A stretch of 58,422 nt of DNA from a virus (Duplodnaviria > Caudoviricetes). Below are positions 10,303-36,750 of this stretch, one piece after another. Where the stretch lies: the IMG/VR virus record IMGVR_UViG_3300021963_000148, positions 1 through 58,422 of that record; one strand, given 5' to 3'. Numbering within the stretch: the stretch's first letter is position 1; every line of letters starts with the position of its first letter. The position numbers were made by a program, and so were the translations under genes. The notes below the pieces were generated by a model. It did not search any database. It worked only from the letters and a program-made list of their open reading frames with translations, and was not told where the DNA came from.

Positions 10303-10321
10303 AGGGCAGTTTTAGGGTATG

Positions 10322-10329
10322 GATAAATA
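10322..10329 (+). promoter_or_regulatory. Late promoter-like GATAAATA
   Basis: TAAATA core in the intergenic gap upstream of the GGAG RBS of the next ORF. Confidence 0.55.
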
Positions 10330-10355
10330 TACTAACATCATAAGCGGAGTGATTG

Positions 10356-16630: not shown

Positions 16631-16951
16631 ATGGCAACAGGAAGATTAGGAGCATCAGACCTTTCAGCAGCGACAAATACGTCGCTATACACTTGCCCCT
16701 CAGATACATTTGCGGTTATTTCAGTATCGCTGTGTAACAGGGCTAACCAAGCATGTAATATACGTATGGCAGTGGCTAATGCTGCTACGCCAACAAATGC
16801 TGAATGGATAGAATTTGACACGGAACTTTTAGGTAAAGGTGTGCTTGAAAGAACTGGTATAGTCATGGACGCAGGCAAAATTTTGGTGGTTTACAGTAAC
16901 CAAGCCAACGTTAGCGCAGTGGCGTTTGGACTCGAAACATCTACGATTTAA
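16631..16951 (+). CDS. Small virion-associated protein
   Basis: 106 aa, GGAGA RBS; MATGRLGASDLSAATNTSLYTCP-type small structural ORF. Confidence 0.6.
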   Translation: MATGRLGASDLSAATNTSLYTCPSDTFAVISVSLCNRANQACNIRMAVANAATPTNAEWIEFDTELLGKGVLERTGIVMDAGKILVVYSNQANVSAVAFGLETSTI

Positions 16952-16976: not shown

Positions 16977-17309
16977 ATGGGAAGATATATTACAACAACT
17001 GGCACAGCAGGCACTACTATACGTGAAGTTAGCAGTGCTTTTAATGCTTCAGTTAATGATCGAATTTTAGCAAATTCGTCAGGCGCTGCGTTTACAATTA
17101 CGCTGCCATCGTCATCGACGTTATTTTTGAATGACACAATTCAAATTATTGACATTGGCGGTGTTACAGCAACAAATAACATCACTGTTGCTCGAAACGG
17201 AGCAAAAATACAAAACGTAGCTGACGATTTAACAATTGACATTAACGGGTCTATTATTACTTTGACATATACTGGTTCGAGTTACGGATGGATTGTATCA
17301 TCGGCTTAA
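16977..17309 (+). CDS. Small tail-fibre-type beta-sandwich protein
   Basis: AFTITLP...DTIQIID...NNITVARNG..I....DLTID....ITLTY.G..YGW resembles T4 gp9/gp10/gp34-type fibre modules. Confidence 0.55.
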   Translation: MGRYITTTGTAGTTIREVSSAFNASVNDRILANSSGAAFTITLPSSSTLFLNDTIQIIDIGGVTATNNITVARNGAKIQNVADDLTIDINGSIITLTYTGSSYGWIVSSA

Positions 17310-17351: not shown

Positions 17352-18326
17352 ATGCCTGTATCATTTAAAAGCCTGATAGGGACCAAAACAAATAGTTTCT
17401 ACACCACTAACGGTGATGAAAGCAATTTGGAAAGAGGTCGAGTATGGAGCTATACACCAGGTAACGATTTTTCACAGTTTGCCATGTGCTGGATTGCCCC
17501 GTCCCGCGGTACTGCTGTGATTGAAATTTGGGGTGCTGGCGGAAGTACTGGTCGCATGTGCTGTTGTGGAGGTGGTACTCCTGGCAACGCCGGAGCATAC
17601 TCTAAAAAAACAATTAAGATGGAAGCTGGTTGTTTTATCTGCGGATCAGTGGGTTATGCCTGCGGTAACGATGCTATGTGCTTTAGAGGTTGTTCAGATC
17701 CAACAGGATTATATTGGTACGGCAATTGCGGTACCAGCGGTTGCATGTGCGCTCAAGGTGGCGCAGGCGGCAGAAGTATGTGCTCTACTGGTACATCTTT
17801 GTTCTGTTGCTTTGTAAACCAAAGCCATTGTTTTTCTGGACCATACAATGATAACTGCGGATTGATTTGTAACTACTTCGGTGGTATTTGGATTGCCTGT
17901 GCCTACGGCGGTGATGTTAATCGATGTGGACATTTTTCATGTTCACTGTTTGTTGGCTGCTCGCCACAGTGTCCTTGTTCATTCCAATATTTTATGGCTA
18001 CACCTGCTGGTCAATTTGCCAAATGTGGCGGAGTTGTTCAGTTTGGTGTTGAAGACGGTAATGAGTTTTCAAACTGGTCAGGGCAGGGCCCACACCAACA
18101 TCAAGCAGGATTAAACGGATTATCTAGAAAACCCAATGGCGGTGTGCCTTGGGCATACTGCTGGGGAGCTGGTGTAGGTTGCGGCTGTTACGAAAACCAA
18201 GGCTGCTCAACAAACATGCCACCGGGTCATCCTGCTATGGCTGTTCACCCATGCCCTGGCGTTAGAGACAACGGTAACCGCGGTGGTCACGGCGCAATAA
18301 GAATTAAGTTTATCGAAGGAATTTAA
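17352..18326 (+). CDS. Cys/Gly-rich putative adhesin, paralogue 1
   Basis: About 30 Cys in 324 aa (hand count); W.AP...IEIWGAGG...GGHGAIRIKF glycine-rich-domain frame. Confidence 0.6.
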   Translation: MPVSFKSLIGTKTNSFYTTNGDESNLERGRVWSYTPGNDFSQFAMCWIAPSRGTAVIEIWGAGGSTGRMCCCGGGTPGNAGAYSKKTIKMEAGCFICGSVGYACGNDAMCFRGCSDPTGLYWYGNCGTSGCMCAQGGAGGRSMCSTGTSLFCCFVNQSHCFSGPYNDNCGLICNYFGGIWIACAYGGDVNRCGHFSCSLFVGCSPQCPCSFQYFMATPAGQFAKCGGVVQFGVEDGNEFSNWSGQGPHQHQAGLNGLSRKPNGGVPWAYCWGAGVGCGCYENQGCSTNMPPGHPAMAVHPCPGVRDNGNRGGHGAIRIKFIEGI

Positions 18327-18327
18327 T

Positions 18328-19326
18328 ATGCCAACGTCGTTTAGATCACTAACAAGAACAAAATTAAATTTTATTGCTGACGAAGAAGAAAATCTCGAAC
18401 AAGGTAGAATTTGGGCATTTACTCACGGCAACGTAAGAACAAAACACTGTACAGGATTTTGTTGGACTGCTCCTAGCGCAGGATGTGTGACATTAGAAAT
18501 ATGGGGTGCTGGCGGCAGCGGCGCAAAAATGTGTTGTTGTGGTGCCGGCATTCCTGGAAATCCAGGTGCTTATTCTAAAAGATCATTTGTCACAAACACA
18601 GGTTGTAAAATCTGCGGTGATGTAGGTTTTAGTTGCGGCAACGCCAATGACCTTTGCTTCCGTGGCTGTTCTGAATCCACGCAGGTATGCTGGTTCAGTT
18701 CAACAACTAATGGTTGTATGTGCGCTCAAGGTGGGCGTGGAGGTACTAGTTACTGCTCCACTGGTACTGCTTTATATTGTTGTTTTATTGCTGGTAATTT
18801 TTGCGGAACACAAGTTGGCAGCCCAGGCTGTGGAATTATATGTAATTATGGTCCAGGCACCGGTACTTGCTGTGCCCAAGCCTATGGCGGTGATGTAAAC
18901 TGTTTTGGTGGATTTAGCTGTGTGAGCTTTTTTGGTTGCTTGCCAACATGTCCTTGTTTGTTTCAATACCACCATGCTATACCAGCAGGCAGATATGCGC
19001 AAGATGGTGGTGTTATTACGTACACTACTGATGCTGACAATGGTGCTGAAAACTGGTCAGGTACTGGATTAAACGGATTTTTAGTTGGACTTGGTGTTGC
19101 TGGAAAAAGTCCATCACATGGATACATGAATAATAACTGCTGGACAGGCGGAAGATCATGTGGGTGCTATGACGGTCAAGGTTGTATAGTGTTTGTGCCG
19201 CCCGGGTTTCCAGGAAGACCAGGAAAGGGATGCCCAGATGTTCGAGATCACGGCGGCCGTGGCGGACATGGTGCTGTGCGTATTCGATTCGTTGCAGCAG
19301 GAACTCGAAACAATTTCTTAGAATAA
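18328..19326 (+). CDS. Cys/Gly-rich putative adhesin, paralogue 2
   Basis: About 32 Cys; WTAP...LEIWGAGGSGAKMCCC...GGRGGHGAVRIRF. Confidence 0.6.
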   Translation: MPTSFRSLTRTKLNFIADEEENLEQGRIWAFTHGNVRTKHCTGFCWTAPSAGCVTLEIWGAGGSGAKMCCCGAGIPGNPGAYSKRSFVTNTGCKICGDVGFSCGNANDLCFRGCSESTQVCWFSSTTNGCMCAQGGRGGTSYCSTGTALYCCFIAGNFCGTQVGSPGCGIICNYGPGTGTCCAQAYGGDVNCFGGFSCVSFFGCLPTCPCLFQYHHAIPAGRYAQDGGVITYTTDADNGAENWSGTGLNGFLVGLGVAGKSPSHGYMNNNCWTGGRSCGCYDGQGCIVFVPPGFPGRPGKGCPDVRDHGGRGGHGAVRIRFVAAGTRNNFLE

Positions 19327-19339
19327 AGAGAGAATACAG

Positions 19340-20302
19340 ATGCCAACGTCGTTACAATTATTAGTTAGATCAAGATCAATAGCTCGAGAAGAAGAGAATA
19401 TCGAAAAAGGTCGTATTTGGGTATATACTCCTGGTACATTTTACACAAATCTTGTTAACGGATTTTGTTGGCAAGCACCAGGGACCGGAACTGCTGTTAT
19501 TGAGCTATGGGGTGCTGGCGGCAGCGGTGGTCGTATGTGCTGTTGCGGTGGCGGCCTTCCGGGCAATGCCGGAGCATACTCAAAACGAACCATACAGGTA
19601 TGCGCAGGAAAATATGTGTGTGGCGGCCTAGGATTTAGCTGCGGCAACGCAGACGCTATTTGTTTCCGTGGTTGTTCAGACTCATCGGGATTATGTTGGC
19701 AGGGTGCTGCTAGTACCAATGGTTGTATGTGTGCGCAAGGCGGCGCTGGCGGAAGATCATTCTGCTCAACAGGCACATCAATGTACTGTTGTTTTGCTGC
19801 TAACGGGTTTTGTGCTCGTGGACCATACAACGACAACTGTGGGTTAATCTGTAACTACTTCAGTGGTATTTGGATTGCCTGTGGTTACGGTGGCGATGTT
19901 AACTGTTGTGGACAGTTTAGTTGTACTTCGTTCAACGGATGTCAACCAAGTTGTACCTGCTGTTTTGCTTATCACATAGCCACACCAGCTAATTTTTATA
20001 GTTGCTGCGGCGGGACTGCTGCTTATCAAACAGAAGATGATAACAGACATACCAATGGACATAACGGTCAAGGTAAGATGCAGTCTATAAACGCAATCGC
20101 ATCATTGAGCAGAAGCCCAACTACGGGAGTTCCTCACAGTTATTGCTGGCGTTCAGATCGTGCTTGTGGCTGTTACGAAATGCAGGGTTGTACACCTTAT
20201 ATTCCACCAGGAACTGGCGGATGGGCACCAAGACCATGTCCAGATCACAGAGATCACGCAGGTCGTGGCGGTCACGGCGCTGTACGCATTAAATTCTTTT
20301 GA
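19340..20302 (+). CDS. Cys/Gly-rich putative adhesin, paralogue 3
   Basis: About 33 Cys; WQAP...IELWGAGGSGGRMCCC...GRGGHGAVRIKFF. Confidence 0.6.
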   Translation: MPTSLQLLVRSRSIAREEENIEKGRIWVYTPGTFYTNLVNGFCWQAPGTGTAVIELWGAGGSGGRMCCCGGGLPGNAGAYSKRTIQVCAGKYVCGGLGFSCGNADAICFRGCSDSSGLCWQGAASTNGCMCAQGGAGGRSFCSTGTSMYCCFAANGFCARGPYNDNCGLICNYFSGIWIACGYGGDVNCCGQFSCTSFNGCQPSCTCCFAYHIATPANFYSCCGGTAAYQTEDDNRHTNGHNGQGKMQSINAIASLSRSPTTGVPHSYCWRSDRACGCYEMQGCTPYIPPGTGGWAPRPCPDHRDHAGRGGHGAVRIKFF

Positions 20303-20324: not shown

Positions 20325-20969
20325 ATGAGAAAAGCATTTACTTTTTTATTACCAGATGAACCATATAAAACAACCACTGTTAACAATTATACAGTGAATG
20401 CTGTTTATACAGGTCCAAGATATCTTGCCCTATGCGTAATTGACGCTACTGGCGAGATCAAATATATTGCCAAACGTGCTGACACTGAAGCAGAATTAAA
20501 TTTTGAAGCATTAGTCGATGACGATCCAGAAACTACTTTTATTAAATTAGACGCAGATGTGCACACATATCAAGCAGCATATTTGACCAATTCCTACGAA
20601 TACGCCCAAGAAATTTCAGATTACGAAGAAGATGTCCCTGGCGGAAAATACACATATCAATACGATCAAAAGCAAGGCGCATTGGGTCAATGTCGTTGGG
20701 TTAATGACTTGAAATACGTTGACGGAAATTACGTAGGTCCAAGATTCCGTGAGCATGCCAATTCTAGAGCAAGTTTTTTTGAAAGTATAAAACTTGTGAT
20801 TCCTGCGATTGAAAATGCTATTTCACAGCGTGTTGAAAATCTTTATACAGACGAAGATGTTCAAAAATTAGAAGATCATTTAGATTTTTTAAAAAATATT
20901 GAAACAACATACGCAGGTGTTGACCACTGGAAAATTCCTTTCCCAAGCGATTTGCCAAATTACTATTAA
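20325..20969 (+). CDS. Hypothetical protein, possible tail-fibre assembly chaperone
   Basis: Acidic 214 aa ORF directly after the fibre paralogues; its C-terminus (LDFLKNIE...WKIPFP) loosely resembles tail assembly chaperone ends. Confidence 0.4.
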   Translation: MRKAFTFLLPDEPYKTTTVNNYTVNAVYTGPRYLALCVIDATGEIKYIAKRADTEAELNFEALVDDDPETTFIKLDADVHTYQAAYLTNSYEYAQEISDYEEDVPGGKYTYQYDQKQGALGQCRWVNDLKYVDGNYVGPRFREHANSRASFFESIKLVIPAIENAISQRVENLYTDEDVQKLEDHLDFLKNIETTYAGVDHWKIPFPSDLPNYY

Positions 20970-20987: not shown

Positions 20988-21033
20988 TAGGTTCTGTGTT
21001 ATTATTGTTTGATACATAGTAACACAGAACCTA
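20988..21033 (+). repeat. 14-bp perfect inverted repeat (TAGGTTCTGTGTTA / TAACACAGAACCTA)
   Basis: Arms at 20988-21001 and 21020-21033; the loop contains GATACATA. Confidence 0.85.
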
Positions 21034-21049: not shown

Positions 21050-21994
21050 ATGGAGAAACGCTCTAAAGCATTTTTTATCAACGGCGGTGCGGGCCGTATG
21101 TTATGTTCAGTACCCGCATTTGAAAAATATGAACAAGAGTCCGGCGATAAAGATTTTATCATAGTCTGCGAAGGCGGAACGGATGTGTTCAAAGGGCATC
21201 CTACCTTAGATTCTAGGACCTATGATGTTTGGCACAAAAATCTTTTTGTAGAAAAACTCAAAGACAAAGACATCTATACCATAGAACCTTATCGTGTTTG
21301 GGAATATTACAATCAAAAATGTAGTATTGCTCAAGCAATAGATATTGAAATTAATAAACAAGGTATTAGAGAATTATCAAAACCCACACTACGACTAAGC
21401 AAAGACGAGTTAATTGCTGGTCGTCAATTAATCAGCGAAGTTAAAAAGAAACTAAAAAAAGAAAAAGTAATAGTATTCCAGCCATTTGGCCGTGGCATTG
21501 AATATCTCGATGAATCATTTGTAGACAGAACTTCTAGAAGCATTGAATATAAAGATGTTAAAAAAATAATTCAAAAACTTCAAGAAAAGGGGTTTGCTGT
21601 AATAATGATGAGCGAAATAAAACTTGATTTAACTCAAGAAAAAAATATCAAAGATGAAATAGCATTTCCAGAAAATGTATCAATTAGACAATGGGCTGCT
21701 GTGATAAAATACGCTGATCACTTTTTAGGGTGTGATAGTTTAGGACAACACCTTGCTTATTCTATGGATAGGCCATCGACTGTAGTGTTTGGCTCTACGT
21801 ATCCTATAAATGTTTCTTATCCTAACGCTAAGAACTTTAATATTTTAGACATGGGTGAAGAACTTCGAGAATACAGTCCTATTAGAATCACTATGGATGA
21901 GCGCATTGATAGAAAACATGAAAGTCTTATGACAATGACTCCTGAAATTATTGACTATGTAGTTGACGCTGTAATAGGAAAACATAAAAAATGA
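21050..21994 (+). CDS. GT9-like (heptosyltransferase-family) glycosyltransferase
   Basis: N-terminal GGAGR..., VIVFQPFG, and WAAVIKYADHFLGCDSLGQHLAYSMDRPSTVVFGST matching the GT9 D-S-x-x-x-H-L-A...V-F-G-x-T signature; GGAG RBS. Confidence 0.7.
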   Translation: MEKRSKAFFINGGAGRMLCSVPAFEKYEQESGDKDFIIVCEGGTDVFKGHPTLDSRTYDVWHKNLFVEKLKDKDIYTIEPYRVWEYYNQKCSIAQAIDIEINKQGIRELSKPTLRLSKDELIAGRQLISEVKKKLKKEKVIVFQPFGRGIEYLDESFVDRTSRSIEYKDVKKIIQKLQEKGFAVIMMSEIKLDLTQEKNIKDEIAFPENVSIRQWAAVIKYADHFLGCDSLGQHLAYSMDRPSTVVFGSTYPINVSYPNAKNFNILDMGEELREYSPIRITMDERIDRKHESLMTMTPEIIDYVVDAVIGKHKK

Positions 21995-23820
21995 ACACTG
22001 AACAACAAGATTTAACTCCAAAATTAAAAACAGGGTGGATAGCAGCCATAGCACGTGGCCATAACTCTGGAGTTTGTTTATTAAAAGACGGAGAAATTGT
22101 ATTTTCTATAGAAGAAGAAAGATTGACACGCCACAAGTACGACGGCGGCCCATATGCTTCTATAATGAAAATTTTAGAGTATACTGATAAATTAGATTAT
22201 CTAGTCGTTGCTCACACACAGAAATTAAATGATACTGCTGGCCGAGTTGACTACACCGGAGACGATGTGTATACCGGGCTAGCTCGTAAAATGGGATTGA
22301 TTGATCGAAAAGCCAATCTCTACAATCACCCACAGGTCATTGATCTTAGCTTTTTACATCATAAATTACATGCTGCTTGTGCTTTTTACAGATCAGGATG
22401 GGAAGAAGCTGTTTCTTTAATTGTTGATGGTGCTGGAACATTCATTCCTTTATCCTATGATAATCAACAGATATGGAGTTACGAAGTAGAGACAATTGTT
22501 GACTGTGCGTATCCTTCTCAATTTACTACCTTATACAAACATTACGGTGTGCGTGAAGGTATCCCAGCACAGTATTATGACAAACTTCCTTCTGATCAGT
22601 TTGGCGAAGCTGGAGAATTTCATCAAGCATGGGTTTCTGACCGAGCCGGTATTGTTAAAACCTACGAAGGTGTTACAGAGTACTGCGGCTTTACTGCTAT
22701 TGAAGCAGGAAAGACCATGGGATTGTTTCCATACGGTAAGCCTAACGATAAGATACCTAAGTTATTTGAATCAAACTCAAAGTTTCCTGTTTCAAACAGA
22801 AACTTAATTGTTCCAATGTATCCATCGAGTTCAACAGTTAACGCAAACCTTTTTGATTTTTTAGATGAAAATCCAGAAGATGAAAAAACTGATGTTACTA
22901 CTTTACAGAATCGTAGAGATATGGCCTACGCTGTACAGACTGAAACACAAGAACAAGTTTTAAAATTAATTCGAAAAGCTTCTGAAATGAGTGGTAAGAA
23001 GCGAGTAGTGATCAGTGGAGGTTATGGTTTAAATTGTGTAGCCAACTATTATTACTTAGAACATCTTAAAAACGAAGGTATTGAAATTTATGTAGAACCA
23101 ATTTCAAACGATGCCGGTACTGCGATGGGAGCAGCATTGATGTTTTGGCATGCCTTAGACGACAACATGACAATTCAAAAACTCGATACGTTGTATCTTG
23201 GACCAGTTCATACATACACACAATCTGAAATTGAAGAAAAAGTTAAATTTGCTGGAGGCAAGCTGACTGATGCCACACACAAAGATGTTGTTAAACTGTT
23301 ACGTGAAAAGAACATTGTTACGATATTTCAAGGACGTTCAGAAAACGGTCCAAGAGCATTAGGCAATCGTTCAGTGCTTTTTGACCCTACATTTCCAGAT
23401 GGCAAGGACTATGTAAATCAAGTAAAACATCGCGAATACTTCCGACCATTTGCTGGCAGTATTTTAGAAGAAGATGCGCACGATTGGTTTGATCTACGTG
23501 GAATGAAAAACAGCCCACACATGATGTACGCTGTAAATTGCCAGCCCGGTGTTGAAGAAAAGATTCCAAGTATTATTCATGAAGATCATACTTGTCGTAT
23601 TCAAACAGTTAATCCTGAGCAAAACAAACATTATTATGATTTGATCAAAGCATTTAAAGACGAAACTGGAATCCCTATTTTGTTTAATACTAGTTTTAAT
23701 TTGGGCGGAGATCCGTTAGTTGAAACTCTAGATGATGCTATAGATACGCTGATGCGCAGTGATATTGAATATTTGTATTTGCCCGAATATGGCAAGCTAA
23801 TAAAAATAGAAAACAGCTAA
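21991..23820 (+). CDS. Carbamoyltransferase, NodU/CmcH/TobZ family
   Basis: EEERLTRHK, HHKLHAACAF, VDGAG, GKTMGL, SGGYGLNCVAN, NDAGTAMGA, GPRALGNRS, KHREYFRPFA, NTSFN; ATGA overlap with the GT gene. Confidence 0.92.
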   Translation: MNTEQQDLTPKLKTGWIAAIARGHNSGVCLLKDGEIVFSIEEERLTRHKYDGGPYASIMKILEYTDKLDYLVVAHTQKLNDTAGRVDYTGDDVYTGLARKMGLIDRKANLYNHPQVIDLSFLHHKLHAACAFYRSGWEEAVSLIVDGAGTFIPLSYDNQQIWSYEVETIVDCAYPSQFTTLYKHYGVREGIPAQYYDKLPSDQFGEAGEFHQAWVSDRAGIVKTYEGVTEYCGFTAIEAGKTMGLFPYGKPNDKIPKLFESNSKFPVSNRNLIVPMYPSSSTVNANLFDFLDENPEDEKTDVTTLQNRRDMAYAVQTETQEQVLKLIRKASEMSGKKRVVISGGYGLNCVANYYYLEHLKNEGIEIYVEPISNDAGTAMGAALMFWHALDDNMTIQKLDTLYLGPVHTYTQSEIEEKVKFAGGKLTDATHKDVVKLLREKNIVTIFQGRSENGPRALGNRSVLFDPTFPDGKDYVNQVKHREYFRPFAGSILEEDAHDWFDLRGMKNSPHMMYAVNCQPGVEEKIPSIIHEDHTCRIQTVNPEQNKHYYDLIKAFKDETGIPILFNTSFNLGGDPLVETLDDAIDTLMRSDIEYLYLPEYGKLIKIENS

Positions 23821-23824
23821 AAAC

Positions 23825-23845
23825 ACCCCCGCAAGGGGGTTTTTT
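23825..23845 (+). terminator. Rho-independent terminator
   Basis: ACCCCC-GCAA-GGGGGT followed by TTTTT. Confidence 0.85.
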
Positions 23846-23861
23846 ATTATATTCAAAATCT

Positions 23862-23890: not shown

Positions 23891-25453
23891 ATGGCAGATT
23901 TTAACAAGTATTTTGTACCTAATGTAAAAAACACCCTACAAGTCAAAAATGGGGTGAATTTTCTTCACAAAGGCCCATGGATACAGATCTTTGATGATAC
24001 TGAAATCGACAGATGGTATGTTGGCGATTTTGCCAGCGCCAGCTATCAGCTTTCCATCGAGTTTAATTCAAACAAAAAAGAAACACTACAGGTATTAGTT
24101 GTAGCTAGACCAGATTACGCAAATTATTCTATTATTGGTCGAGTTGCCATCGACGACGAACTTGTAGATATTTCAGCTACTGTTAATAACAGCTATCTTA
24201 GTTTAAAATTGTCACCTAAAATTCCAGCATATCGTGGAATGAAAGCAATTTATAAAGCAAACTACTCAGGTGTTTTAAACGAAATTGAACGTCCGGCCAC
24301 TCCAACGTTTTTAGTACCTTCGACAGTGCCTTCAACACCGGGCACTGGTGGTGGCGGTGGGTCAAGTGTAGACTTAGGTTCAATCACACAAGACATTGTT
24401 CCGTCAACTGCTGGCTCTGTAAATTTAGGATCTTTGGCAAATAATTGGAATGACCTGTATCTACAAAATTCTATAGTGTTAAACGGTGCTGTTATATCTA
24501 GCACAGGATCAAATGCTATCGAATTACCATTTGGATCTACTATTGGCGGCACAGCATTAAATTTCTTTTCTAGACTAGCAGTTTCAGGCGAAAGCGATGT
24601 TGTTGCTGAAACACCAAACGACACAGTTACACTAGTAGCAGGAACTGGCATTAGCATATCCACTGACCCACTAACTGACTCAATAGTAATTACAAATACA
24701 GGTAGCGGCACTGAAGGCGGTGGTGGCGGGGGCGGTAGTACATCATTGTCAAACTCATTTACAACTATAGCCGTGTTGGGCCAATCAAACGTAGTTGCTG
24801 ATACTCCGTCAGACACGTTAACTTTAGTAGCCGGCAGCGGAATGACTATATCTACTAATGCTGCTGCTGATACTATTATATTTTCTTCCACAGGTGGCAG
24901 CGGAGGTGGCAGCGGAGGTACAGCAGCATCTGTGCTTGTTCAAGAAATTACAACAGGAATATTTCCGTTAGTAGTATCAACAGGAGTTGATTCTGTATCA
25001 GGACAATCTCTGTATGCTGACACGGCGGTAACACTAAACACTGCTACAAATGTTTTAACTGTTACTGCTACACAAGCACAATGGGCGGACTTAGCAGAAA
25101 ATTATCAAGCAGATTTTAACTATGCCCCAGGGACTGTGTTAGAATTTGGTGGCGAATACGAAGTAACCGAAGCCACAGACGAAACAAGACGTGTAGCTGG
25201 AGTAGTATCAACTAGCCCAGCACATTTGATGAATAGTAAATTGATTGGAAATAATGTTGTTGCCATTGCTCTTCAAGGTCGTGTCCCATGTAAAGTTCGT
25301 GGAAAAATTAGAAAAGGCGATTTAATGGTAAGTGGCGGTGGCGGATACGCAAGACCAACACAGGATCCTAAAATTGGCACAATCATTGGAAAAGCCCTAG
25401 AAGACTTTAACGATGTTGAAGGTGTTATAGAAGTGGTAGTAGGCAGGCTATAA
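23891..25453 (+). CDS. Tail fibre protein with C-terminal intramolecular chaperone/peptidase G2-like domain
   Basis: C-terminal WADLAENY.AD..Y.PGTV...VAGVVSTSPAHLMN...IALQGRVPCKV.G.I.KGDLMV...IIGKALE; two internal VVA(E/D)TP.DT.TLVAG.G repeats; Gly linkers. Confidence 0.75.
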   Translation: MADFNKYFVPNVKNTLQVKNGVNFLHKGPWIQIFDDTEIDRWYVGDFASASYQLSIEFNSNKKETLQVLVVARPDYANYSIIGRVAIDDELVDISATVNNSYLSLKLSPKIPAYRGMKAIYKANYSGVLNEIERPATPTFLVPSTVPSTPGTGGGGGSSVDLGSITQDIVPSTAGSVNLGSLANNWNDLYLQNSIVLNGAVISSTGSNAIELPFGSTIGGTALNFFSRLAVSGESDVVAETPNDTVTLVAGTGISISTDPLTDSIVITNTGSGTEGGGGGGGSTSLSNSFTTIAVLGQSNVVADTPSDTLTLVAGSGMTISTNAAADTIIFSSTGGSGGGSGGTAASVLVQEITTGIFPLVVSTGVDSVSGQSLYADTAVTLNTATNVLTVTATQAQWADLAENYQADFNYAPGTVLEFGGEYEVTEATDETRRVAGVVSTSPAHLMNSKLIGNNVVAIALQGRVPCKVRGKIRKGDLMVSGGGGYARPTQDPKIGTIIGKALEDFNDVEGVIEVVVGRL

Positions 25454-33902: not shown

Positions 33903-34295
33903 ATGACCCGAATATTCGTTAACGGCACTTTTGACATTTTACATATTGGACATCTAGAACTGCTGAAATATGCTCGCAGTTTAGGTGACCATCTCACCGT
34001 TGGCATTGACTCTGATGCTAGAGTATCCAGGCTCAAAGGCCCAACTCGACCAATAAACAATCAACAAGAACGAACAACAATGTTACAGCATCTACGATCA
34101 GTTGATGATGTTGTAGTTTTTGATACAGAACAAGAACTAGTTGATCTTATTGCCAATTCGGATATTATAGTCAAAGGCAGCGACTATCAAGGAAAGCCTA
34201 TTGTAGGCGCACATGTTAGTAAGCAATTAGTATTTTTTGAAAGAATCGATGGATATTCAACAACAGAAAAAATTCAAGATATTATTGATCGGTGA
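33903..34295 (+). CDS. hldC: Heptose-1-phosphate nucleotidyltransferase (HldE domain II / HldC-like)
   Basis: NGTFDILHIGH (HIGH motif), VGIDSD..V.RLKGPTRPIN, VKGSDY, GYSTT. Confidence 0.85.
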   Translation: MTRIFVNGTFDILHIGHLELLKYARSLGDHLTVGIDSDARVSRLKGPTRPINNQQERTTMLQHLRSVDDVVVFDTEQELVDLIANSDIIVKGSDYQGKPIVGAHVSKQLVFFERIDGYSTTEKIQDIIDR

Positions 34296-34998
34296 CAACT
34301 GCCTTGACATATATCAATACGGCACCGTAGATAGAATCAGTCCAGAAGCCCCTGTGCCAGTGTTTAAGTTTAGCTACGAAGAACACAGTCCGGGTATGGC
34401 TGGCAATGTTGCTTGTAATCTAAAAGCACTAGGCTGTGATGTTGACTACTTACACGGAGAGACTAGTACAAAAACTAGACTTGTAGATATTCGCAGTAAA
34501 CAACAGATTGTTAGAATAGATAATGATGTTGTTTCACAACCTATTGAATTTGAAACAGCAATACCTAAAATCTATGATGCTATTGTTATCAGCGACTACG
34601 ATAAAGGCACAGTGTCTTACGATATTATTGAAGAAGCTATTGCTACTAGAATGCCTGTGTTTGTTGACACAAAAAAAACAGATCTAGAACGACTTCAAGG
34701 TGCTTGGGTTAAAATTAACGAATTAGAATACAGCAAAATTAAATCTGAGTGTACAGGATTAATAGTTACCAAAGGTGCTAAAGGCGCAGTAATACCACAT
34801 CATGAATTTTCTTCTTCTGCTCCTGTGGTTGAAGTAGTGGATGTTACCGGAGCTGGAGACACATTTCTAGCTGCGTTAACGTATATGTATCTAGAAACAA
34901 AACAAATTACATCTGCTGTAGATTTTTCTAACAAAGCTGCGTCAATAACAGTACAACACGTAGGTTGTTATGCTCCAAATTTAAAGGAAATAAAATGA
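34249..34998 (+). CDS. hldA: Heptose-7-phosphate kinase (HldE domain I / HldA-like, PfkB family)
   Basis: IGD.CLD.Y.YG.VDRISPEAPVPV, GMAGNVA.NL, KTR, SDYDKG, VDVTGAGDTF. Start taken at ATG 34249 (TTG at 34237 is an alternative). Confidence 0.88.
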   Translation: MDIQQQKKFKILLIGDNCLDIYQYGTVDRISPEAPVPVFKFSYEEHSPGMAGNVACNLKALGCDVDYLHGETSTKTRLVDIRSKQQIVRIDNDVVSQPIEFETAIPKIYDAIVISDYDKGTVSYDIIEEAIATRMPVFVDTKKTDLERLQGAWVKINELEYSKIKSECTGLIVTKGAKGAVIPHHEFSSSAPVVEVVDVTGAGDTFLAALTYMYLETKQITSAVDFSNKAASITVQHVGCYAPNLKEIK

Positions 34999-35393
34999 CA
35001 CAATTACAAGGTTATCAAGAAAAAGGGTGGGGTTACGAATTAATATTTGCCACCAACGAGCATTATACAGGAAAAATTTTATGCTTTACAAAAGTAGGTG
35101 CTAAGTTCAGCATGCACTTTCACAAAGACAAAGTAGAAACTTGGTTTGTTAATACTGGAAAATTTAAAGTTCGATGGATAGATACTAGTAACGCAATCCT
35201 TTTTGAAAAGGAACTTAACACCGGCGACACTTGGCATAATCCTCCACTTCAGCCACATCAATTAGAAGCACTAACACCAAACGCAATGATTTTTGAAGTA
35301 AGCACTGCGGATTCTGTTGAAGACAATTATAGAATTATTCCAGGTGACAGTCAAGTAGTGTTGCCCGCAGACGGTGAAGGTACATTGTCATGA
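34995..35393 (+). CDS. Cupin, mannose-6-phosphate isomerase type II-like
   Basis: KGWGYE...FSMHFH..K.ETW...GD.WHNPP.QPHQL...FEVST; ATG at 34995 with AAGGA RBS and ATGA overlap. Confidence 0.75.
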   Translation: MTQLQGYQEKGWGYELIFATNEHYTGKILCFTKVGAKFSMHFHKDKVETWFVNTGKFKVRWIDTSNAILFEKELNTGDTWHNPPLQPHQLEALTPNAMIFEVSTADSVEDNYRIIPGDSQVVLPADGEGTLS

Positions 35394-35881
35394 ACATCTA
35401 TCTAGACATGGATGATGTAGTTGCTGATTGGTTTGGCTACGCTAGAGCCTATCTCAAAGAACCGTTTTTTAAAGATGGCGACTTACTGCCTGAGACAACT
35501 TGGCGTAGGCTCAAAGATGATCAGCGAATGTATAGTAAGCTGCCAATAAAAGAAGGAGCTCACGAATTAGTAAAATGGGTCACTGATTATAAAACAAAAA
35601 CAAACTGTGGATTGTATTTTTTAAGTGCTATTCCTAAAGGCAATGACATGCCATGGGCTCCACAGGATAAAGTATTTTGGGCATTTGAAAATTTCCCACA
35701 CATTCCAGTATTTCTTGGTCCTTACAGCTATGAAAAACATATGCACTGTCGTAACGTAGGCGACATTCTAATTGACGACAGGACCTCAAATTGCGAAGAA
35801 TGGATTCAAGCTGGCGGCCGAGCACACATTTATAAAGATTGGCCTAATTGTAAAACTTGGCTGGAGAAGACCCTAGGATGA
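35390..35881 (+). CDS. HAD phosphatase, 5'(3')-deoxyribonucleotidase (NT5C)-like
   Basis: IYLDMDDVVADW (DxD motif I), FLSA, K..W, ILIDDR..NC.EW..AGG. Confidence 0.75.
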   Translation: MNIYLDMDDVVADWFGYARAYLKEPFFKDGDLLPETTWRRLKDDQRMYSKLPIKEGAHELVKWVTDYKTKTNCGLYFLSAIPKGNDMPWAPQDKVFWAFENFPHIPVFLGPYSYEKHMHCRNVGDILIDDRTSNCEEWIQAGGRAHIYKDWPNCKTWLEKTLG

Positions 35882-36750
35882 TAGTAGTTACTGGCGCAGC
35901 GGGATTTATAGGATCTAATATAGTTCATGGCCTAAACAAACTAGGACGCACTGACATTATCTGTGTTGACAATTCTCGTGCTAATATAGAGTTGACCTAT
36001 GACAAATGGCTTTCTATTGACGAGTTTTATGAAGAATTTAACAAATGGAATAAAGTTGAGGTTGTTTATCACGAGGGTGCGATATCTAGTACAACAGAAC
36101 GTGATAAAAATCTAATACACAGAAAAAATAAAAATCCCACAGTGTTTCTTATAGATAAAGCAATCGAACATGATTTTCTTTTATCATATGCTAGCTCTGC
36201 TAGTGTGTATGGAGCCGGGCCGTTGTTTAAAGAAAATCAATCTCTCGATCCTAGATCTTTGTACGCACAAAGCAAAGCCGACACAGATTACTATACCGCT
36301 ATCAAACTATTAGAAAATCCTAGAGCTAAGTTACAAGGCTGGAGATATTTTAATGTATATGGCAATGGTGAAAAGCACAAAGGAGCGCAGGCAAGTCCTA
36401 TACACAAGTTTTCTCAACAGGCACAGATAGAAGGAACTGTGTTTGTATTCAAAGGCAGTGAAAATTTTCTAAGAGATTTTATCTGTGTTGATGATATTGT
36501 TAATATTAAATTGTCAGTAGGACACTGGCACAGCGGTATATTCAATTTAGGCACAGGCACAGTTATTTCTTTCAAAGATGTAGCTGAGCTTGTTGCTAAA
36601 AAATACAATGCTTCGATAAAAGAAATTGAATTTCCTGCTGAATTAGAAGGGCAGTATCAGACGTACACCTGTGCTGATATAGAAAAATTAAAATCAGTGA
36701 TTGGGGATTACCAATTTATTTCGGTAAAAGATTTTCTAGATCGACTCTAA
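35878..36750 (+). CDS. hldD: ADP-L-glycero-D-manno-heptose 6-epimerase
   Basis: MIVVTGAAGFIGSNIV, HEGAISSTTE, YASSASVYG, YAQSK, RYFNVYGNGEKHKGAQAS, RDFI, YQTYTCAD. Confidence 0.88.
   Translation: MIVVTGAAGFIGSNIVHGLNKLGRTDIICVDNSRANIELTYDKWLSIDEFYEEFNKWNKVEVVYHEGAISSTTERDKNLIHRKNKNPTVFLIDKAIEHDFLLSYASSASVYGAGPLFKENQSLDPRSLYAQSKADTDYYTAIKLLENPRAKLQGWRYFNVYGNGEKHKGAQASPIHKFSQQAQIEGTVFVFKGSENFLRDFICVDDIVNIKLSVGHWHSGIFNLGTGTVISFKDVAELVAKKYNASIKEIEFPAELEGQYQTYTCADIEKLKSVIGDYQFISVKDFLDRL

What the first reader, a model, noticed from the sequence alone, without database searches (positions are those of the whole stretch)
21050..23820. GT9-like transferase and carbamoyltransferase cassette inside the tail-fibre cluster: candidate virion heptosylation/carbamoylation system
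Seen: the two genes are translationally coupled (ATGA), bounded by a hairpin and a strong terminator, and sit between fibre genes rich in Ser/Thr. The same window encodes nucleotide-heptose synthesis (33903-36750). Known: GT9 enzymes (WaaC/WaaF) use ADP-heptose, the Aah/TibC enzymes heptosylate Ser/Thr of adhesins, and NodU/TobZ enzymes O-carbamoylate sugars. Inference: the phage makes its own heptose donor, transfers it to virion proteins (or host LPS) and carbamoylates the sugar. Alternative: the carbamoyltransferase acts on hydroxymethylated DNA bases, as described for some phage homologues.
Basis: partly seen in the sequence, partly recalled or inferred. Interest (0 to 1): 0.85.

Follow-up and report, generated by a model that had tools for sequence, protein, structure and literature searches.

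The report
Phage sugar-decorating gene pair beside tail fibres
A large aquatic phage carries, inside its tail-fibre gene block, an always-paired sugar transferase and sugar carbamoylating enzyme, plus genes for the activated seven-carbon sugar heptose, so it probably decorates its own host-binding fibres or the host surface, though this is untested.

Summary
ORF 21050-21994 (314 aa) has a GT9 fold. It overlaps by ATGA with ORF 21991-23820 (609 aa), a NodU/TobZ-type O-carbamoyltransferase. A very stable hairpin lies upstream and a clean terminator downstream.

The GT belongs to a family seen here only in phage or phage-like contigs. A carbamoyltransferase lies within about 3 kb in 98 of 98 close loci. 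In phage isolates the orthologous carbamoyltransferase clade occurs in exactly the 23 records that carry the GT. Every complete GT-bearing isolate genome (19 of 19) also has the heptose-7-phosphate kinase. In P-SSM2, S-CAM1 and S-SSM7 the heptose genes follow in the same gene block, immediately in the first two.

The pair sits beside Cys/Gly-rich proteins whose fold resembles phage fibres, and beside a chaperone-like gene. This module recurs in T4-like cyanophages and in the roughly 360 kb jumbo lineage of this window.

No thymidylate-synthase-type hydroxymethylase occurs in relatives, which argues against 5hmC carbamoylation.

The donor (ADP-heptose) is well supported by linkage. The acceptor is not shown. 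Fibre or adhesin glycosylation is my best guess (about 0.4), and host envelope glycan is the main rival.

The genes were previously annotated as "LPS genes" or "hypothetical". I rate this a new variant of a known kind, interest 0.55.

The parts
20988..21033 (+). Long perfect hairpin between the chaperone-like gene and the GT, followed by a U-rich stretch. Probably an attenuator, terminator or RNA-stability element.
   Evidence: sequence.: -35.4 kcal/mol, z -9.0. A strongly folding element (z <= -3) lies in the 100 nt upstream of the GT in 40 of 71 distinct related loci.
21050..21994 (+). GT9-fold glycosyltransferase of a divergent family seen here only in phage or phage-like contigs (PHROG 8954). 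Predicted donor is ADP-heptose. Acceptor unknown.
   Evidence: AF2 pLDDT 95.9. The ten best PDB neighbours are all GT9: 3tov, WaaF 1psw, WaaC 2gt1/2h1h/6dfe, TibC 4rap (4rb4 at rank 16). D229 and H234 align to WaaC D261 and H266.
21991..23820 (+). NodU/CmcH/TobZ-family O-carbamoyltransferase (Kae1-like N domain plus YrdC-like C domain).
   Evidence: PDB: 7xb6 E 1.2e-55, GdmN, novobiocin carbamoyltransferase, TobZ.
23825..23846 (+). Intrinsic-terminator-like GC hairpin followed by a T run, directly after the CT stop codon.
17352..20302 (+). Three paralogous Cys/Gly-rich proteins (324, 332 and 320 aa; 9-10% Cys, 17-19% Gly) with a fibre or adhesin-like glycine-rich fold. Candidate receptor-binding proteins and candidate acceptors.
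   Evidence: composition. AF2 pLDDT 80.9. Foldseek: cyanophage Pam3 fibre 7ypx E 1.2e-6, Bxb1 tail tip, ALK/LTK glycine-rich domain. Such ORFs lie within 7 kb of the GT in 66 of 70 loci. They occur in 0 of 4 GT-less cyanomyovirus genomes.
20325..20969 (+). Acidic 214-aa protein (PHROG 9740), probably a fibre assembly chaperone-like factor.
   Evidence: A gene matching it by tblastn lies just upstream of the GT in 59 of 83 loci. In locus L058 a 309-aa ORF beside the cassette, whose N-terminus I judged by eye to resemble this protein (tblastn at 1e-5 found no match there), carries Phage_tail_APC at E 5.7e-6 (26.5 bits, just under the 26.6 cut-off).
23891..25453 (+). Fibre protein (520 aa, 19.6% S+T, Gly/Ser linkers) directly downstream.
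   Evidence: A homologue lies within 1.5 kb of the GT-CT pair in 65 of 83 loci.
33903..34295 (+). Heptose-1-phosphate adenylyltransferase-like protein (HldE/RfaE domain II).
   Evidence: TIGR02199 E 6.3e-34, below the cut-off.
34237..34998 (+). Heptose-7-phosphate kinase-like protein (HldE/RfaE domain I, PfkB).
   Evidence: TIGR02198 E 1.6e-46, below the cut-off.
34965..35393 (+). Small cupin (PHROG 7851, named 'cysteine dioxygenase'). It may stand in for the missing sugar-phosphate isomerase, or it may modify the sugar nucleotide. Unresolved.
   Evidence: weak Lyx_isomer and MannoseP_isomer hits only.
35390..35881 (+). HAD/NT5C-like phosphatase. Best named match is 5'-3' deoxyribonucleotidase. 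A role as GmhB-like phosphatase is only a possibility.
   Evidence: No tblastn match in any of the 83 loci (L001-L083; most flanks stop short of the heptose genes).
35857..36750 (+). ADP-glycero-manno-heptose 6-epimerase-like protein (HldD).
   Evidence: TIGR02197 E 1.1e-72, 244.9 bits against a cut-off of 274.6..

Best explanation
The two genes form one sugar-decoration unit of the phage's receptor-binding (tail-fibre) module.

Step 1, inferred from linkage: the phage's own HldE-like kinase, HldE-like adenylyltransferase and HldD-like epimerase make ADP-heptose in the infected cell. The isomerase and phosphatase steps come from the host or from the unassigned cupin and HAD genes.

Step 2: the GT9-fold enzyme transfers heptose in the cytoplasm. 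The fold and the nucleotide-sugar motif are shown. Donor and acceptor are inferred.

Step 3: the NodU/TobZ-type enzyme activates carbamoyl phosphate with ATP and O-carbamoylates a hydroxyl of that sugar. Family membership is shown. The substrate is inferred by analogy with 7-O-carbamoyl-heptose in the Pseudomonas LPS core.

The acceptor I think most likely is a phage protein of the same module, namely the Cys/Gly-rich fibre or adhesin-like proteins or the Ser/Thr-rich fibres. The virion would then carry carbamoyl-heptose on its host-recognition apparatus.

The upstream hairpin probably lowers read-through from the highly expressed structural genes into the enzyme genes.

My confidence by layer:
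- One GT plus O-carbamoyltransferase pathway: about 0.85.
- Heptose as the donor: about 0.65.
- A virion protein as the acceptor: about 0.4.
For: Enzyme identities.

Obligate pairing:
- A CT lies on the same strand within 3.2 kb downstream of the GT in 83 of 83 viral or isolate loci.
- A CT lies within 3 kb in 15 of 15 MAG-binned loci, down to 37% GT identity.
- CT orthologues at 43.7% identity or more occur in exactly the 23 phage records that carry the GT.
- The next CT clade (40.6% or less) lies in unrelated, non-fibre contexts.

Heptose linkage:
- In S-CAM1 and P-SSM2 the order GT, CT, adenylyltransferase, kinase, cupin, epimerase is contiguous. In S-SSM7 four other genes separate the CT from the heptose genes. 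It is also contiguous in jumbo relative L011.
- The kinase is present in 22 of 23 GT records; the miss is a 4.1 kb fragment. It is present in 19 of 19 complete isolate genomes.
- A strong HldD hit occurs in 17 of 21 large records and in 5 of 5 complete ones.
- Distant GT homologues in N4-like Vibrio and Aeromonas phages lack the kinase. From recall, those hosts make ADP-heptose themselves.

Acceptor context:
- The family was found only in viral or MAG-binned phage-like contigs.
- The module of Cys/Gly-rich proteins, chaperone-like gene, GT and CT recurs in Kyanoviridae isolates and in this jumbo lineage.
- Cys/Gly-rich ORFs lie within 7 kb of the GT in 66 of 70 loci. They are present in 3 of 3 GT-bearing isolates and in 0 of 4 GT-less cyanomyoviruses.
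- These proteins have a fibre-like fold.
- The SBP1 homologue sits between a tail fibre gene and a tail protein gene.
- The acceptor-side N domain cannot be aligned to WaaC or WaaF by sequence.
- The N domain is not consistently basic: median pI 6.8 across 70 members, against 9.7-10.0 for WaaF and WaaC.
- Cyanobacterial LPS is reported to lack heptose and Kdo (PMC4515613, abstract only).

Precedents:
- GT9-fold protein heptosyltransferase TibC is among the structural neighbours.
- WapO (PA5005) is the putative carbamoyltransferase of the Pseudomonas core heptoses; that paper's table gives its P. syringae counterpart as a Cm-(->7) carbamoyltransferase (PMC8005017, passages).
Against: - No direct evidence for any acceptor.
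- The tail-fibre region of T4-like marine phages is a known hypervariable island where 'LPS-related' genes accumulate (PMC7029224, passages). In S-SSM7 the same stretch also holds denV, a halogenase and 2OG oxygenases. Position alone could therefore reflect a permissive site.
- Classical GT9 acceptors are LPS cores.
- The window's own N domain is basic (pI 8.9).
- The TibC-type Cys cluster is absent.
- In the beta1-alpha1 loop, where I recall WaaC having its catalytic Asp, this family has G-G-A-G-R. The catalytic base is therefore unidentified.
- The Cys/Gly-rich family has no nearly invariant Ser or Thr.
- Heptose genes also occur in cyanophages without this GT: S-T4, Sf-CH5, Sf-CH8, P-TIM68 and S-SM2.
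- GmhA is absent and GmhB is unclear, so the pathway is not shown to be complete.
- The control set for the Cys/Gly-rich co-occurrence is small, and the lineages are not independent.
Confidence: 0.4

Rival explanations
1. Host envelope remodelling. The GT adds heptose to a host lipid-linked glycan (LPS core, O-antigen precursor or another surface polysaccharide) and the CT carbamoylates it. This would change the receptor landscape of the infected cell, giving superinfection exclusion or less loss of progeny on debris. It is the 'LPS gene' reading of Sullivan et al. 2005.
For: - The GT9 family is best known for LPS heptosyltransferases. Weak NCBIfam hits go to RfaQ and to heptosyltransferases I and III.
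- The Pseudomonas inner core combines GT9 heptosyltransferases with the carbamoyltransferase WapO (PMC8005017).
- The window GT's N domain is basic (pI 8.9).
- P-SSM2 and S-SSM7 carry large clusters of further sugar genes (PMC1079782 and PMC3037559, passages).
- Phages of very different backbones keep glycosyltransferases in the fibre hypervariable region (PMC7029224).
Against: - The family was found only in viral contigs, and its N domain is unlike WaaC or WaaF.
- The same family serves phages of Prochlorococcus and Synechococcus and a jumbo lineage whose near-complete relatives lack psbA. That is hard to reconcile with one host-specific acceptor.
- Cyanobacterial LPS is reported to lack heptose and Kdo (abstract only).
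- The genes are packed on the structural strand with no promoter-like gap in front. This suggests late expression, when envelope remodelling would bring little. That is inference only.
- N-domain pI is not conserved as basic across the family.
Confidence: 0.25
2. Another cytoplasmic acceptor. The pair builds a carbamoylated heptoside on something other than a fibre protein or LPS. Candidates are another virion component (capsid, baseplate, internal protein), a free oligosaccharide, or a small metabolite. Its place in the fibre block would then be a by-product of that region's plasticity.
For: - The fibre region is a hypervariable island holding unrelated auxiliary genes.
- In some relatives one or two extra unassigned ORFs (287-307 aa, no Pfam or PHROG) sit between the GT and the CT. 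This hints at a longer tailoring pathway.
- The solved homologues of the CT act on small molecules: tobramycin, novobiocin and geldanamycin.
Against: - The module is kept together with Cys/Gly-rich fibre-like proteins and a chaperone-like gene across distant phage backbones.
- The distant SBP1 homologue again lies between tail genes.
Confidence: 0.2
3. DNA hypermodification. The CT carbamoylates 5-hydroxymethylcytosine (as shown for a metavirome enzyme), and the GT glycosylates hydroxymethylated bases.
For: A phage carbamoyltransferase of the same two Pfam domains makes 5-carbamoyloxymethylcytosine in vitro (PMC8670742, abstract and passages).
Against: - That activity is tied to a neighbouring thymidylate-synthase-family hydroxymethylase. 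In that study, CTs on unmodified contigs were flanked by glycosyltransferases instead.
- PF00303 is absent from S-SSM7, S-CAM1 and P-SSM2.
- PF00303 is also absent from five relatives of the window, two of them 98-100% complete, and from the window itself.
- The pair lies in the fibre block, not with nucleotide-metabolism genes.
- Not tested: TET/JBP-type routes to 5hmC, and direct sequence comparison with the characterised enzyme.
Confidence: 0.03
4. The GT9-fold protein is not an enzyme but a fibre-assembly or structural factor that kept the fold.
For: - It always lies with fibre and chaperone-like genes.
- No acidic residue is seen where I recall the WaaC catalytic Asp.
Against: - The nucleotide-sugar motif D229-S230-x-x-x-H234 is invariant or nearly so across 70 diverse members, and so are Q144-P145-x-G147 and R163-S164.
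- It is obligately paired with a sugar-tailoring enzyme and linked to donor synthesis.
Confidence: 0.03

Closest known systems
Pseudomonas LPS inner-core system: GT9 heptosyltransferases WaaC/WaaF plus carbamoyltransferase WapO (PA5005), giving 7-O-carbamoyl-L,D-heptose
   Same: The same two enzyme families are combined with ADP-heptose supply. This is the only well-known natural O-carbamoylated heptose (PMC8005017 passages, PMC7168646 figure legend).
   Different: - Bacterial and chromosomal, with Kdo2-lipid A core as acceptor.
- The phage GT shares only the C-domain motif with WaaC and WaaF.
- The phage GT scores far below the heptosyltransferase equivalog cut-offs.
- Similarity of the phage CT to WapO itself was not tested.
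Bacterial autotransporter heptosyltransferases (Aah, TibC)
   Same: GT9-like fold. TibC structures 4rap and 4rb4 are among the neighbours, at ranks 9, 10 and 16. They are cytoplasmic O-heptosylation enzymes acting on an adhesin encoded next door and using ADP-heptose.
   Different: No conserved Cys cluster (the TibC Fe-Cys4 site and dodecamer are recalled, not tested). Only 11-12% identity. No autotransporter is present, and these enzymes have no paired carbamoyltransferase.
'LPS gene' cluster of T4-like cyanophages P-SSM2, S-SSM7 and S-CAM1 (T4-GC 302-308)
   Same: Direct homologues: GT 43-55% and CT 47-62% identity. Same order and same fibre-block position. The heptose genes were noted in print in 2005 and 2010 as putative LPS genes of unknown role.
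   Different: - In those records the GT is annotated 'hypothetical protein'.
- In those phages the heptose genes lie downstream in the same block, immediately in P-SSM2 and S-CAM1. In this window three fibre genes (about 10 kb) separate them.
- The window GT lacks the 55-100 aa low-complexity C-terminal tail.
- The host phage here is a jumbo myovirus, not a member of the Kyanoviridae.
Mycobacteriophage virion glycosylation by phage-encoded glycosyltransferases
   Same: Tailed phages that glycosylate their own structural proteins using enzymes encoded beside the structural genes. I saw this only through search listings of citing papers. The primary study is recalled.
   Different: Different GT families, sugars and targets (capsid and tail tube). 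No phage-encoded donor pathway and no carbamoylation.
Metavirome 5-hydroxymethylcytosine carbamoyltransferase (MetaGPA)
   Same: Same Pfam domain pair, and phage-encoded.
   Different: Linked to a thymidylate-synthase-type hydroxymethylase, which is absent here and in relatives.
TobZ, NovN, GdmN and NodU O-carbamoyltransferases
   Same: Full-length homology. The GH..G, HHxxH and DG motifs of the N domain and the C domain are conserved in the alignment to 7xb6.
   Different: Their substrates are antibiotics or Nod factors. NodU equivalog score is 142.6 against a cut-off of 1000.

Membership tests
Glycosyltransferase family 9 (Pfam PF01075 / CAZy GT9) | Match to the family model above its curated cut-off | tested here: met
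   32.9 bits against a cut-off of 22, E 5.4e-8. Only the C-domain part is matched (profile positions 127-226 of 247).
Glycosyltransferase family 9 (Pfam PF01075 / CAZy GT9) | Two-domain GT-B fold whose nearest solved structures are GT9 enzymes | tested here: met
   (pLDDT 95.9, pTM 0.93); ranks 1-10 are all GT9 (3tov, 1psw, 2gt1, 2h1h, 2h1f, 6dfe, 4rap), E 4e-11 to 3e-9, TMq 0.51-0.70, identity 11-14%.
Glycosyltransferase family 9 (Pfam PF01075 / CAZy GT9) | C-domain nucleotide-sugar motif D-S/T-G-x-x-H | tested here: met
   D229 and H234 align to WaaC D261 and H266. Both are invariant in 70 family members.
Glycosyltransferase family 9 (Pfam PF01075 / CAZy GT9) | N-terminal catalytic Asp after strand 1 (WaaC D13; residue recalled) | tested here: inconclusive
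   The corresponding loop reads G12-G13-A-G15-R16, with no acidic residue. No residue-level structural superposition was available. E79 and D159 are conserved candidates.
LPS heptosyltransferases I/II/III (NCBIfam equivalogs) | Score above the equivalog cut-off | tested here: not met
   25.0 against 467 (RfaQ), 23.2 against 170 (III), 22.2 against 185 (I).
LPS heptosyltransferases I/II/III (NCBIfam equivalogs) | Use of ADP-heptose as donor | not testable with these tools
   Supported only by gene linkage.
Autotransporter heptosyltransferases (Aah/TibC) | Conserved Cys cluster binding iron, and oligomeric ring (features recalled) | tested here: not met
   only two alignment columns hold Cys in at least half of 70 members. 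Oligomeric state was not tested.
Autotransporter heptosyltransferases (Aah/TibC) | Gene adjacent to its adhesin substrate | tested here: inconclusive
   Fibre or adhesin-like genes are adjacent, but no substrate relation is shown.
NodU/CmcH/TobZ O-carbamoyltransferases | Both Carbam_trans_N and Carbam_trans_C domains in one chain | tested here: met
   E 1.4e-29 and 3.1e-58, both above their cut-offs. PHROG 1601 E 8.7e-168.
NodU/CmcH/TobZ O-carbamoyltransferases | Conserved His/Asp motifs of the Kae1-like domain (their role as metal ligands is recalled) | tested here: met
   alignment to 7xb6: GHNSG matches GHDAA, HHKLH matches HHRAH, DGA matches DGQ.
NodU (NCBIfam equivalog NF041651) | Score above the equivalog cut-off | tested here: not met
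   142.6 bits against a cut-off of 1000.
Phage 5hmC carbamoyltransferase system | Co-occurrence with a thymidylate-synthase-family dCMP hydroxymethylase | tested here: not met
   PF00303 is absent in the window, in 3 isolate genomes and in 5 relatives including 2 near-complete ones. The control rang in 10 of 14 reference genomes.
Phage 5hmC carbamoyltransferase system | Close sequence relation to the characterised enzyme | not tested
   The enzyme's sequence is printed in PMC8670742 but is not a stored protein, so I did not type it.
ADP-L-glycero-beta-D-manno-heptose pathway (GmhA, HldE, GmhB, HldD) | HldE kinase, HldE adenylyltransferase and HldD epimerase | tested here: met
   E 1.6e-46, 6.3e-34 and 1.1e-72. 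These are the best-scoring families for each protein, though all fall below the equivalog cut-offs.
ADP-L-glycero-beta-D-manno-heptose pathway (GmhA, HldE, GmhB, HldD) | SIS-type sedoheptulose-7-phosphate isomerase GmhA | tested here: not met
   no SIS_2 match in the window, G001, G003, P-SSM2 or S-CAM1. The gene annotated 'phosphoheptose isomerase' in P-SSM2 and S-CAM1 gives only weak HAD-type hits.
ADP-L-glycero-beta-D-manno-heptose pathway (GmhA, HldE, GmhB, HldD) | GmhB-type HAD phosphatase | tested here: inconclusive
   ORF 35390-35881 is HAD/NT5C-like. Its best named family is 5'-3' deoxyribonucleotidase, and it was not found in related loci.

The most novel reading that the evidence does not exclude
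A mobile receptor-binding module is shared between T4-like cyanophages and a jumbo myovirus lineage of about 360 kb. It carries its own glycosylation machinery. Phage-made ADP-heptose is transferred by a phage-restricted GT9 enzyme onto the phage's Cys/Gly-rich adhesins or fibres and is then O-carbamoylated. Virions would then present carbamoyl-heptose on the host-recognition apparatus. This would be the first tail-fibre glycosylation system of a tailed phage that brings its own sugar-nucleotide supply.
Probability: 0.35. Interest if true: 0.8.

Novelty: new variant of a known kind. Interest (0 to 1): 0.55.

Why it matters
If the acceptor is a fibre or adhesin, these widespread aquatic phages tune or shield their host-recognition proteins with a sugar that their cyanobacterial hosts are reported not to put in LPS. 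That would add a post-translational layer to host range, adsorption and resistance in globally abundant phage-host pairs. It would also explain genes labelled 'LPS genes' or 'stuffer DNA' since 2005.

If the acceptor is the host envelope, this would be a lytic-phage receptor-masking system.

Either way the result is directly testable. Isolates with the cassette are in culture (S-CAM1, S-SSM7, P-SSM2), and the expected mass shifts are specific.

The GT family would also be a new branch of GT9 with a non-LPS-type acceptor domain.

Tried and rejected
- Megablast of the region against phage records found nothing. Protein-level searches were needed.
- phmmer of the GT against PDB sequences found nothing. 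The family profile reached WaaF and WaaC only at E 0.05-0.4.
- T4-type late promoter TATAAATA is not enriched: 2 found, 5.7 expected. I drew no timing inference from promoters.
- tblastn of the fib520 N-terminal domain and of a Cys/Gly-rich protein against phage records gave no match. For the Cys/Gly-rich query this is probably due to the low-complexity filter, because my own unfiltered tblastn did hit S-CAM1.
- A profile of the Cys/Gly-rich family (A3) found nothing in 5 GT-less cyanophages. It also missed 2 of 3 positive controls, so that result is uninformative. I replaced it with a composition scan of four whole genomes.
- Complex prediction of the GT with a Cys/Gly-rich protein returned no verdict. 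It counts neither for nor against binding.
- The look-up of sequencing runs listed no RNA holder. This is no evidence on expression, and read laying was not used.
- Literature on P-SSM2 transcription gave nothing on these genes. Gene-level expression classes may sit in supplements, which are closed.
- Virion proteomics in the supplements of PMC3037559 could bear on whether T4-GC 302 and 303 or the Cys/Gly-rich proteins are virion components. I could not see them.
- Two full-text searches found no paper proposing heptosylation of phage fibres.
- The extra ORFs between GT and CT in relatives have no Pfam, PHROG or named Atlas cluster. My impression of an SGNH-like N-terminal motif is untested.

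Full report
**What is there**

The window is a 58.4 kb viral contig fragment with a CheckV completeness estimate of 17%.

ORF 21050-21994 (314 aa) and ORF 21991-23820 (609 aa) lie on the + strand and overlap as ATGA.

The first ORF matches Pfam Glyco_transf_9 above its cut-off, but only over the C-terminal part of the model (E 5.4e-8). It also matches PHROG 8954, of unknown function, at E 1.7e-135.

The second ORF has both carbamoyltransferase domains (E 1.4e-29 and 3.1e-58). It matches PHROG 1601 'Nol-like carbamoyltransferase'. It aligns over most of its length to solved O-carbamoyltransferases: 7xb6 at 1.2e-55, then GdmN, the novobiocin enzyme and TobZ.

The 80-nt gap in front of the pair folds into a long hairpin (-35.4 kcal/mol, z -9.0, 0 of 200 shuffles as good). 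A GC stem followed by six T lies directly after the second stop codon. The number of terminator-like sites in 17-37 kb is not above chance (16 found, 13.9 expected), so only this one site is notable.

An element that folds at z <= -3 lies in the 100 nt upstream of the GT in 40 of 71 distinct related loci. A comparable downstream element occurs in 23 of 71. The upstream hairpin is therefore a recurrent but not universal feature.

**The glycosyltransferase**

No PDB sequence is found by phmmer. A profile of 70 diverse family members reaches WaaF (E 0.049) and WaaC (E 0.3-0.4) only at the C-domain motif.

The AlphaFold model is very confident (pLDDT 95.9, pTM 0.93). Its ten best Foldseek neighbours in the PDB are all GT9 enzymes:
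- a Veillonella GT9 (3tov);
- WaaF (1psw);
- WaaC (2gt1, 2h1h, 2h1f, 6dfe);
- the protein heptosyltransferase TibC (4rap; 4rb4 follows at rank 16).

These hits have E 4e-11 to 3e-9, TMq 0.51-0.70 and 11-14% identity.

Profile-profile alignment places invariant D229 and H234 on WaaC D261 and H266. It aligns the whole C domain to WaaF at 79% probability. The N domain, which binds the acceptor in GT-B enzymes, cannot be aligned by sequence.

In the loop after strand 1 the family has G-G-A-G-R. This is where I recall WaaC having its catalytic Asp, so the base is unidentified. E79 and D159 are conserved candidates.

The protein scores far below the NCBIfam heptosyltransferase equivalog cut-offs. 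It lacks a conserved Cys cluster. I therefore file it as a divergent GT9-fold family, not as WaaC/F/Q and not as an Aah/TibC-type enzyme.

**Distribution of the family**

- 426 clusters at 50% identity reach E <= 0.001 among 1.84 billion representatives.
- Among phage isolates, 26 records match. Of these, 23 match at 37-55% identity and nearly full length. All 23 are Synechococcus or Prochlorococcus myoviruses or marine single-cell viral contigs.
- The other three match at 24% identity. They are an Aeromonas phage and an N4-like Vibrio phage present as two records.
- A pattern scan of one genome for each of 185,579 prokaryote species found 15 loci. All are in metagenome-assembled bins of unrelated phyla, and several carry fibre genes, so they look like phage contigs.
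- That scan used two family-specific peptide patterns and would miss distant bacterial relatives.

**Pairing with the carbamoyltransferase**

In 83 of 83 loci (3 isolates plus 80 IMG/VR contigs) the CT lies on the same strand within 3.2 kb downstream of the GT. The spacings fall into four classes:
- about 0.95 kb, directly adjacent as in this window;
- about 1.1-1.2 kb, where the GT carries a C-terminal tail;
- about 1.8-1.95 kb, with one extra ORF of 287-307 aa that has no family;
- about 2.83 kb, with two such ORFs.

All 15 MAG-binned loci also have a CT within 3 kb, 14 downstream and 1 upstream, down to 37% GT identity.

Among phage isolates, 136 records hold a CT homologue. The 23 with at least 43.7% identity are exactly the 23 that hold the GT. 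The next clade (40.6% or less: S-CAM8, P-RSM4, S-TIM4, S-SSM5, S-CAM9, S-RIM44) lies among 2OG oxygenases, psbA or thyX, not among fibres. The GT-linked CT is therefore a distinct subfamily.

**Link to heptose**

The window encodes three enzymes whose best-scoring families are heptose-specific, all below the equivalog cut-offs:
- an rfaE domain II adenylyltransferase (E 6.3e-34);
- an rfaE domain I kinase (E 1.6e-46);
- an HldD epimerase (E 1.1e-72, 244.9 bits against a cut-off of 274.6).

In P-SSM2 and S-CAM1 the order GT, CT, adenylyltransferase, kinase, small HAD-like gene, cupin, epimerase is contiguous. In S-SSM7 four other genes lie between the CT and the heptose genes. The cassette is also contiguous in jumbo relative L011. 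In this window three fibre genes, about 10 kb, separate the two halves.

Co-occurrence counts:
- The kinase occurs in 34 of 50,697 phage records.
- 22 of the 23 GT records are among those 34. The miss is a 4.1 kb fragment.
- All 19 complete GT-bearing isolate genomes have the kinase.
- A strong HldD match (E <= 1e-55) is present in 17 of 21 large GT-bearing records, and in 5 of 5 complete or near-complete ones. The four without it are fragments estimated at 40-60% complete.
- Conversely, 12 kinase-bearing records lack this GT (S-T4, Sf-CH5, Sf-CH8, P-TIM68, S-SM2 and others). Heptose genes are therefore not exclusive to it.
- The distant GT homologues in the Vibrio and Aeromonas phages come without the kinase. 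From recall, those hosts make ADP-heptose themselves.

The pathway is not demonstrably complete:
- No SIS-type GmhA exists in the window, in two near-complete relatives, or in P-SSM2 or S-CAM1.
- The gene annotated 'phosphoheptose isomerase' in the isolates gives only weak HAD-type hits.
- The window's HAD-like ORF is closest to a deoxyribonucleotidase family and had no tblastn match in any of the 83 related loci, most of whose flanks stop short of the heptose genes.
- The conserved small cupin has only weak sugar-isomerase-type hits.

**The neighbourhood**

Upstream lie three paralogous proteins with 9-10% Cys and 17-19% Gly, then an acidic 214-aa protein.

The Cys/Gly-rich protein folds with moderate confidence (pLDDT 80.9). 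Its best structural neighbours are the cyanophage Pam3 fibre (7ypx, E 1.2e-6), Bxb1 tail-tip proteins and the glycine-rich domain of ALK/LTK. It is most likely a fibre or adhesin.

In locus L058 a 309-aa ORF next to the cassette, whose N-terminus I judged by eye to resemble the 214-aa protein, carries a tail-assembly-chaperone domain just under its cut-off. tblastn at 1e-5 found no match to the 214-aa protein in that locus.

P-SSM2, S-SSM7 and S-CAM1 have two or three such Cys/Gly-rich genes directly upstream of their GT. The 225-aa gene among them in P-SSM2 and the 241-aa one in S-CAM1 (weak tblastn match, 25% identity) look chaperone-like by size, position and N-terminal sequence.

Cys/Gly-rich ORFs lie within 7 kb of the GT in 66 of 70 loci that have at least 4 kb of upstream sequence. 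Four complete GT-less cyanomyoviruses have none. The sample is small and the lineages are not independent.

The N4-like Vibrio phage keeps its distant GT homologue between a tail fibre gene and a tail protein gene.

**The phage itself**

A relative with 95% GT identity is a 364 kb contig rated 100% complete, and another is 353 kb at 98%. Neither has psbA.

A structural protein of the window finds its nearest isolates among PA5oct-like and Rak2-like jumbo phages. The fibre module is therefore shared between a jumbo lineage and the T4-like cyanophages.

**Weighing the readings**

DNA modification is unlikely. The characterised 5hmC carbamoyltransferase is tied to a thymidylate-synthase-type hydroxymethylase. 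In that study, CTs on unmodified contigs were flanked by glycosyltransferases instead (PMC8670742, passages). PF00303 is absent from three isolate genomes, from five relatives and from the window.

Between a virion protein and a host glycan as acceptor, the evidence is circumstantial.

For the virion:
- the family was found only in viral contigs;
- the acceptor domain differs in sequence from those of WaaC and WaaF;
- the module travels with fibre-like proteins across unrelated phage backbones and very different hosts;
- cyanobacterial LPS reportedly lacks heptose and Kdo (PMC4515613, abstract only);
- N-domain charge is not conserved (median pI 6.8, against 9.7-10.0 for WaaF and WaaC).

For the host envelope:
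- the classical GT9 acceptors are LPS cores;
- Pseudomonas combines GT9 heptosyltransferases with WapO (PMC8005017, passages);
- the fibre region is a known hypervariable island that collects 'LPS' genes (PMC7029224, passages);
- the window's own N domain is basic (pI 8.9).

My odds are 0.4 for a virion protein, 0.25 for the host envelope, 0.2 for another acceptor, 0.03 for DNA and 0.03 for a non-enzymatic role.

**Novelty**

The heptose genes and the CT have been listed since 2005 and 2010 as putative LPS genes or auxiliary genes of unknown role (PMC1079782, PMC3037559, passages). The GT was annotated 'hypothetical' in isolates, while JGI auto-annotation calls close relatives 'ADP-heptose:LPS heptosyltransferase'.

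As far as my searches go, three things are not in print:
- the obligate GT-CT pairing;
- the restriction of the GT family to phages and its divergent acceptor domain;
- its linkage to Cys/Gly-rich fibre-like proteins, and its presence in a jumbo lineage.

I rate it a new variant of a known kind, with interest 0.55.

Noticed in passing
window 17352-20302: Three tandem paralogues (324, 332 and 320 aa) with 9-10% Cys and 17-19% Gly, carrying conserved CCC and GG motifs. The model's fold resembles the cyanophage Pam3 fibre, Bxb1 tail-tip proteins and the ALK/LTK glycine-rich domain. What more than 30 cysteines do in a cytoplasmically assembled fibre protein (metal sites or disulfides) is unexplained.
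   Followed up: partly
whole window; relatives G001 (L004) and G003 (L021): The window belongs to a jumbo myovirus lineage of about 350-365 kb. The relatives are rated 98-100% complete and lack psbA. The nearest isolates for one structural protein are PA5oct-like and Rak2-like phages. Yet its fibre module (Cys/Gly-rich genes, chaperone-like gene, GT, CT) is shared with T4-like cyanophages, which suggests exchange of a whole receptor-binding module between phage families.
   Followed up: partly
L003 12027-12371 (P-SSM2 PSSM2_311); L002 11916-12239 (S-CAM1): The GenBank product name 'phosphoheptose isomerase' looks wrong. These proteins of 107-114 aa give only weak HAD-phosphatase-type Pfam hits, and no SIS domain exists anywhere in these genomes. 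The neighbouring cupin, annotated 'cysteine dioxygenase', may be the real isomerase or a sugar-nucleotide epimerase.
   Followed up: partly
L058 11008-12831; L018 11071-11934: In a subset of relatives, one or two paralogous ORFs of 287-307 aa lie between the GT and the CT. Their N-terminus is conserved (it begins MSRLF, followed by a G-C-S motif). They have no Pfam, PHROG or named Atlas cluster. They may be a further tailoring enzyme of the same pathway.
   Followed up: partly
L001-L003 (GT homologues of S-SSM7, S-CAM1, P-SSM2): Cyanophage GT homologues carry a low-complexity C-terminal tail of 55-100 aa rich in Lys, Pro, Gln and Ser. The window protein lacks it. Its function is unknown.
   Followed up: no
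L106 2364-4619 (S-RIM44): A different cyanophage carbamoyltransferase (39% identity) is split into two ORFs and lies directly after thyX. This recalls the thymidylate-synthase linkage reported for DNA-modifying CTs, although ThyX is a different family.
   Followed up: no
window 4195-16619 and 26031-33863: Three giant fibre-like ORFs (2035, 2088 and 2610 aa; 20-23% S+T; pI 4.8-5.1) flank the module. Two small fibre-fragment-like ORFs (16631-16951 and 16977-17309) match tail-fibre PHROGs.
   Followed up: no
window, both strands: The T4 late-promoter motif TATAAATA is not enriched (2 found, 5.7 expected). This phage probably uses another late promoter.
   Followed up: partly
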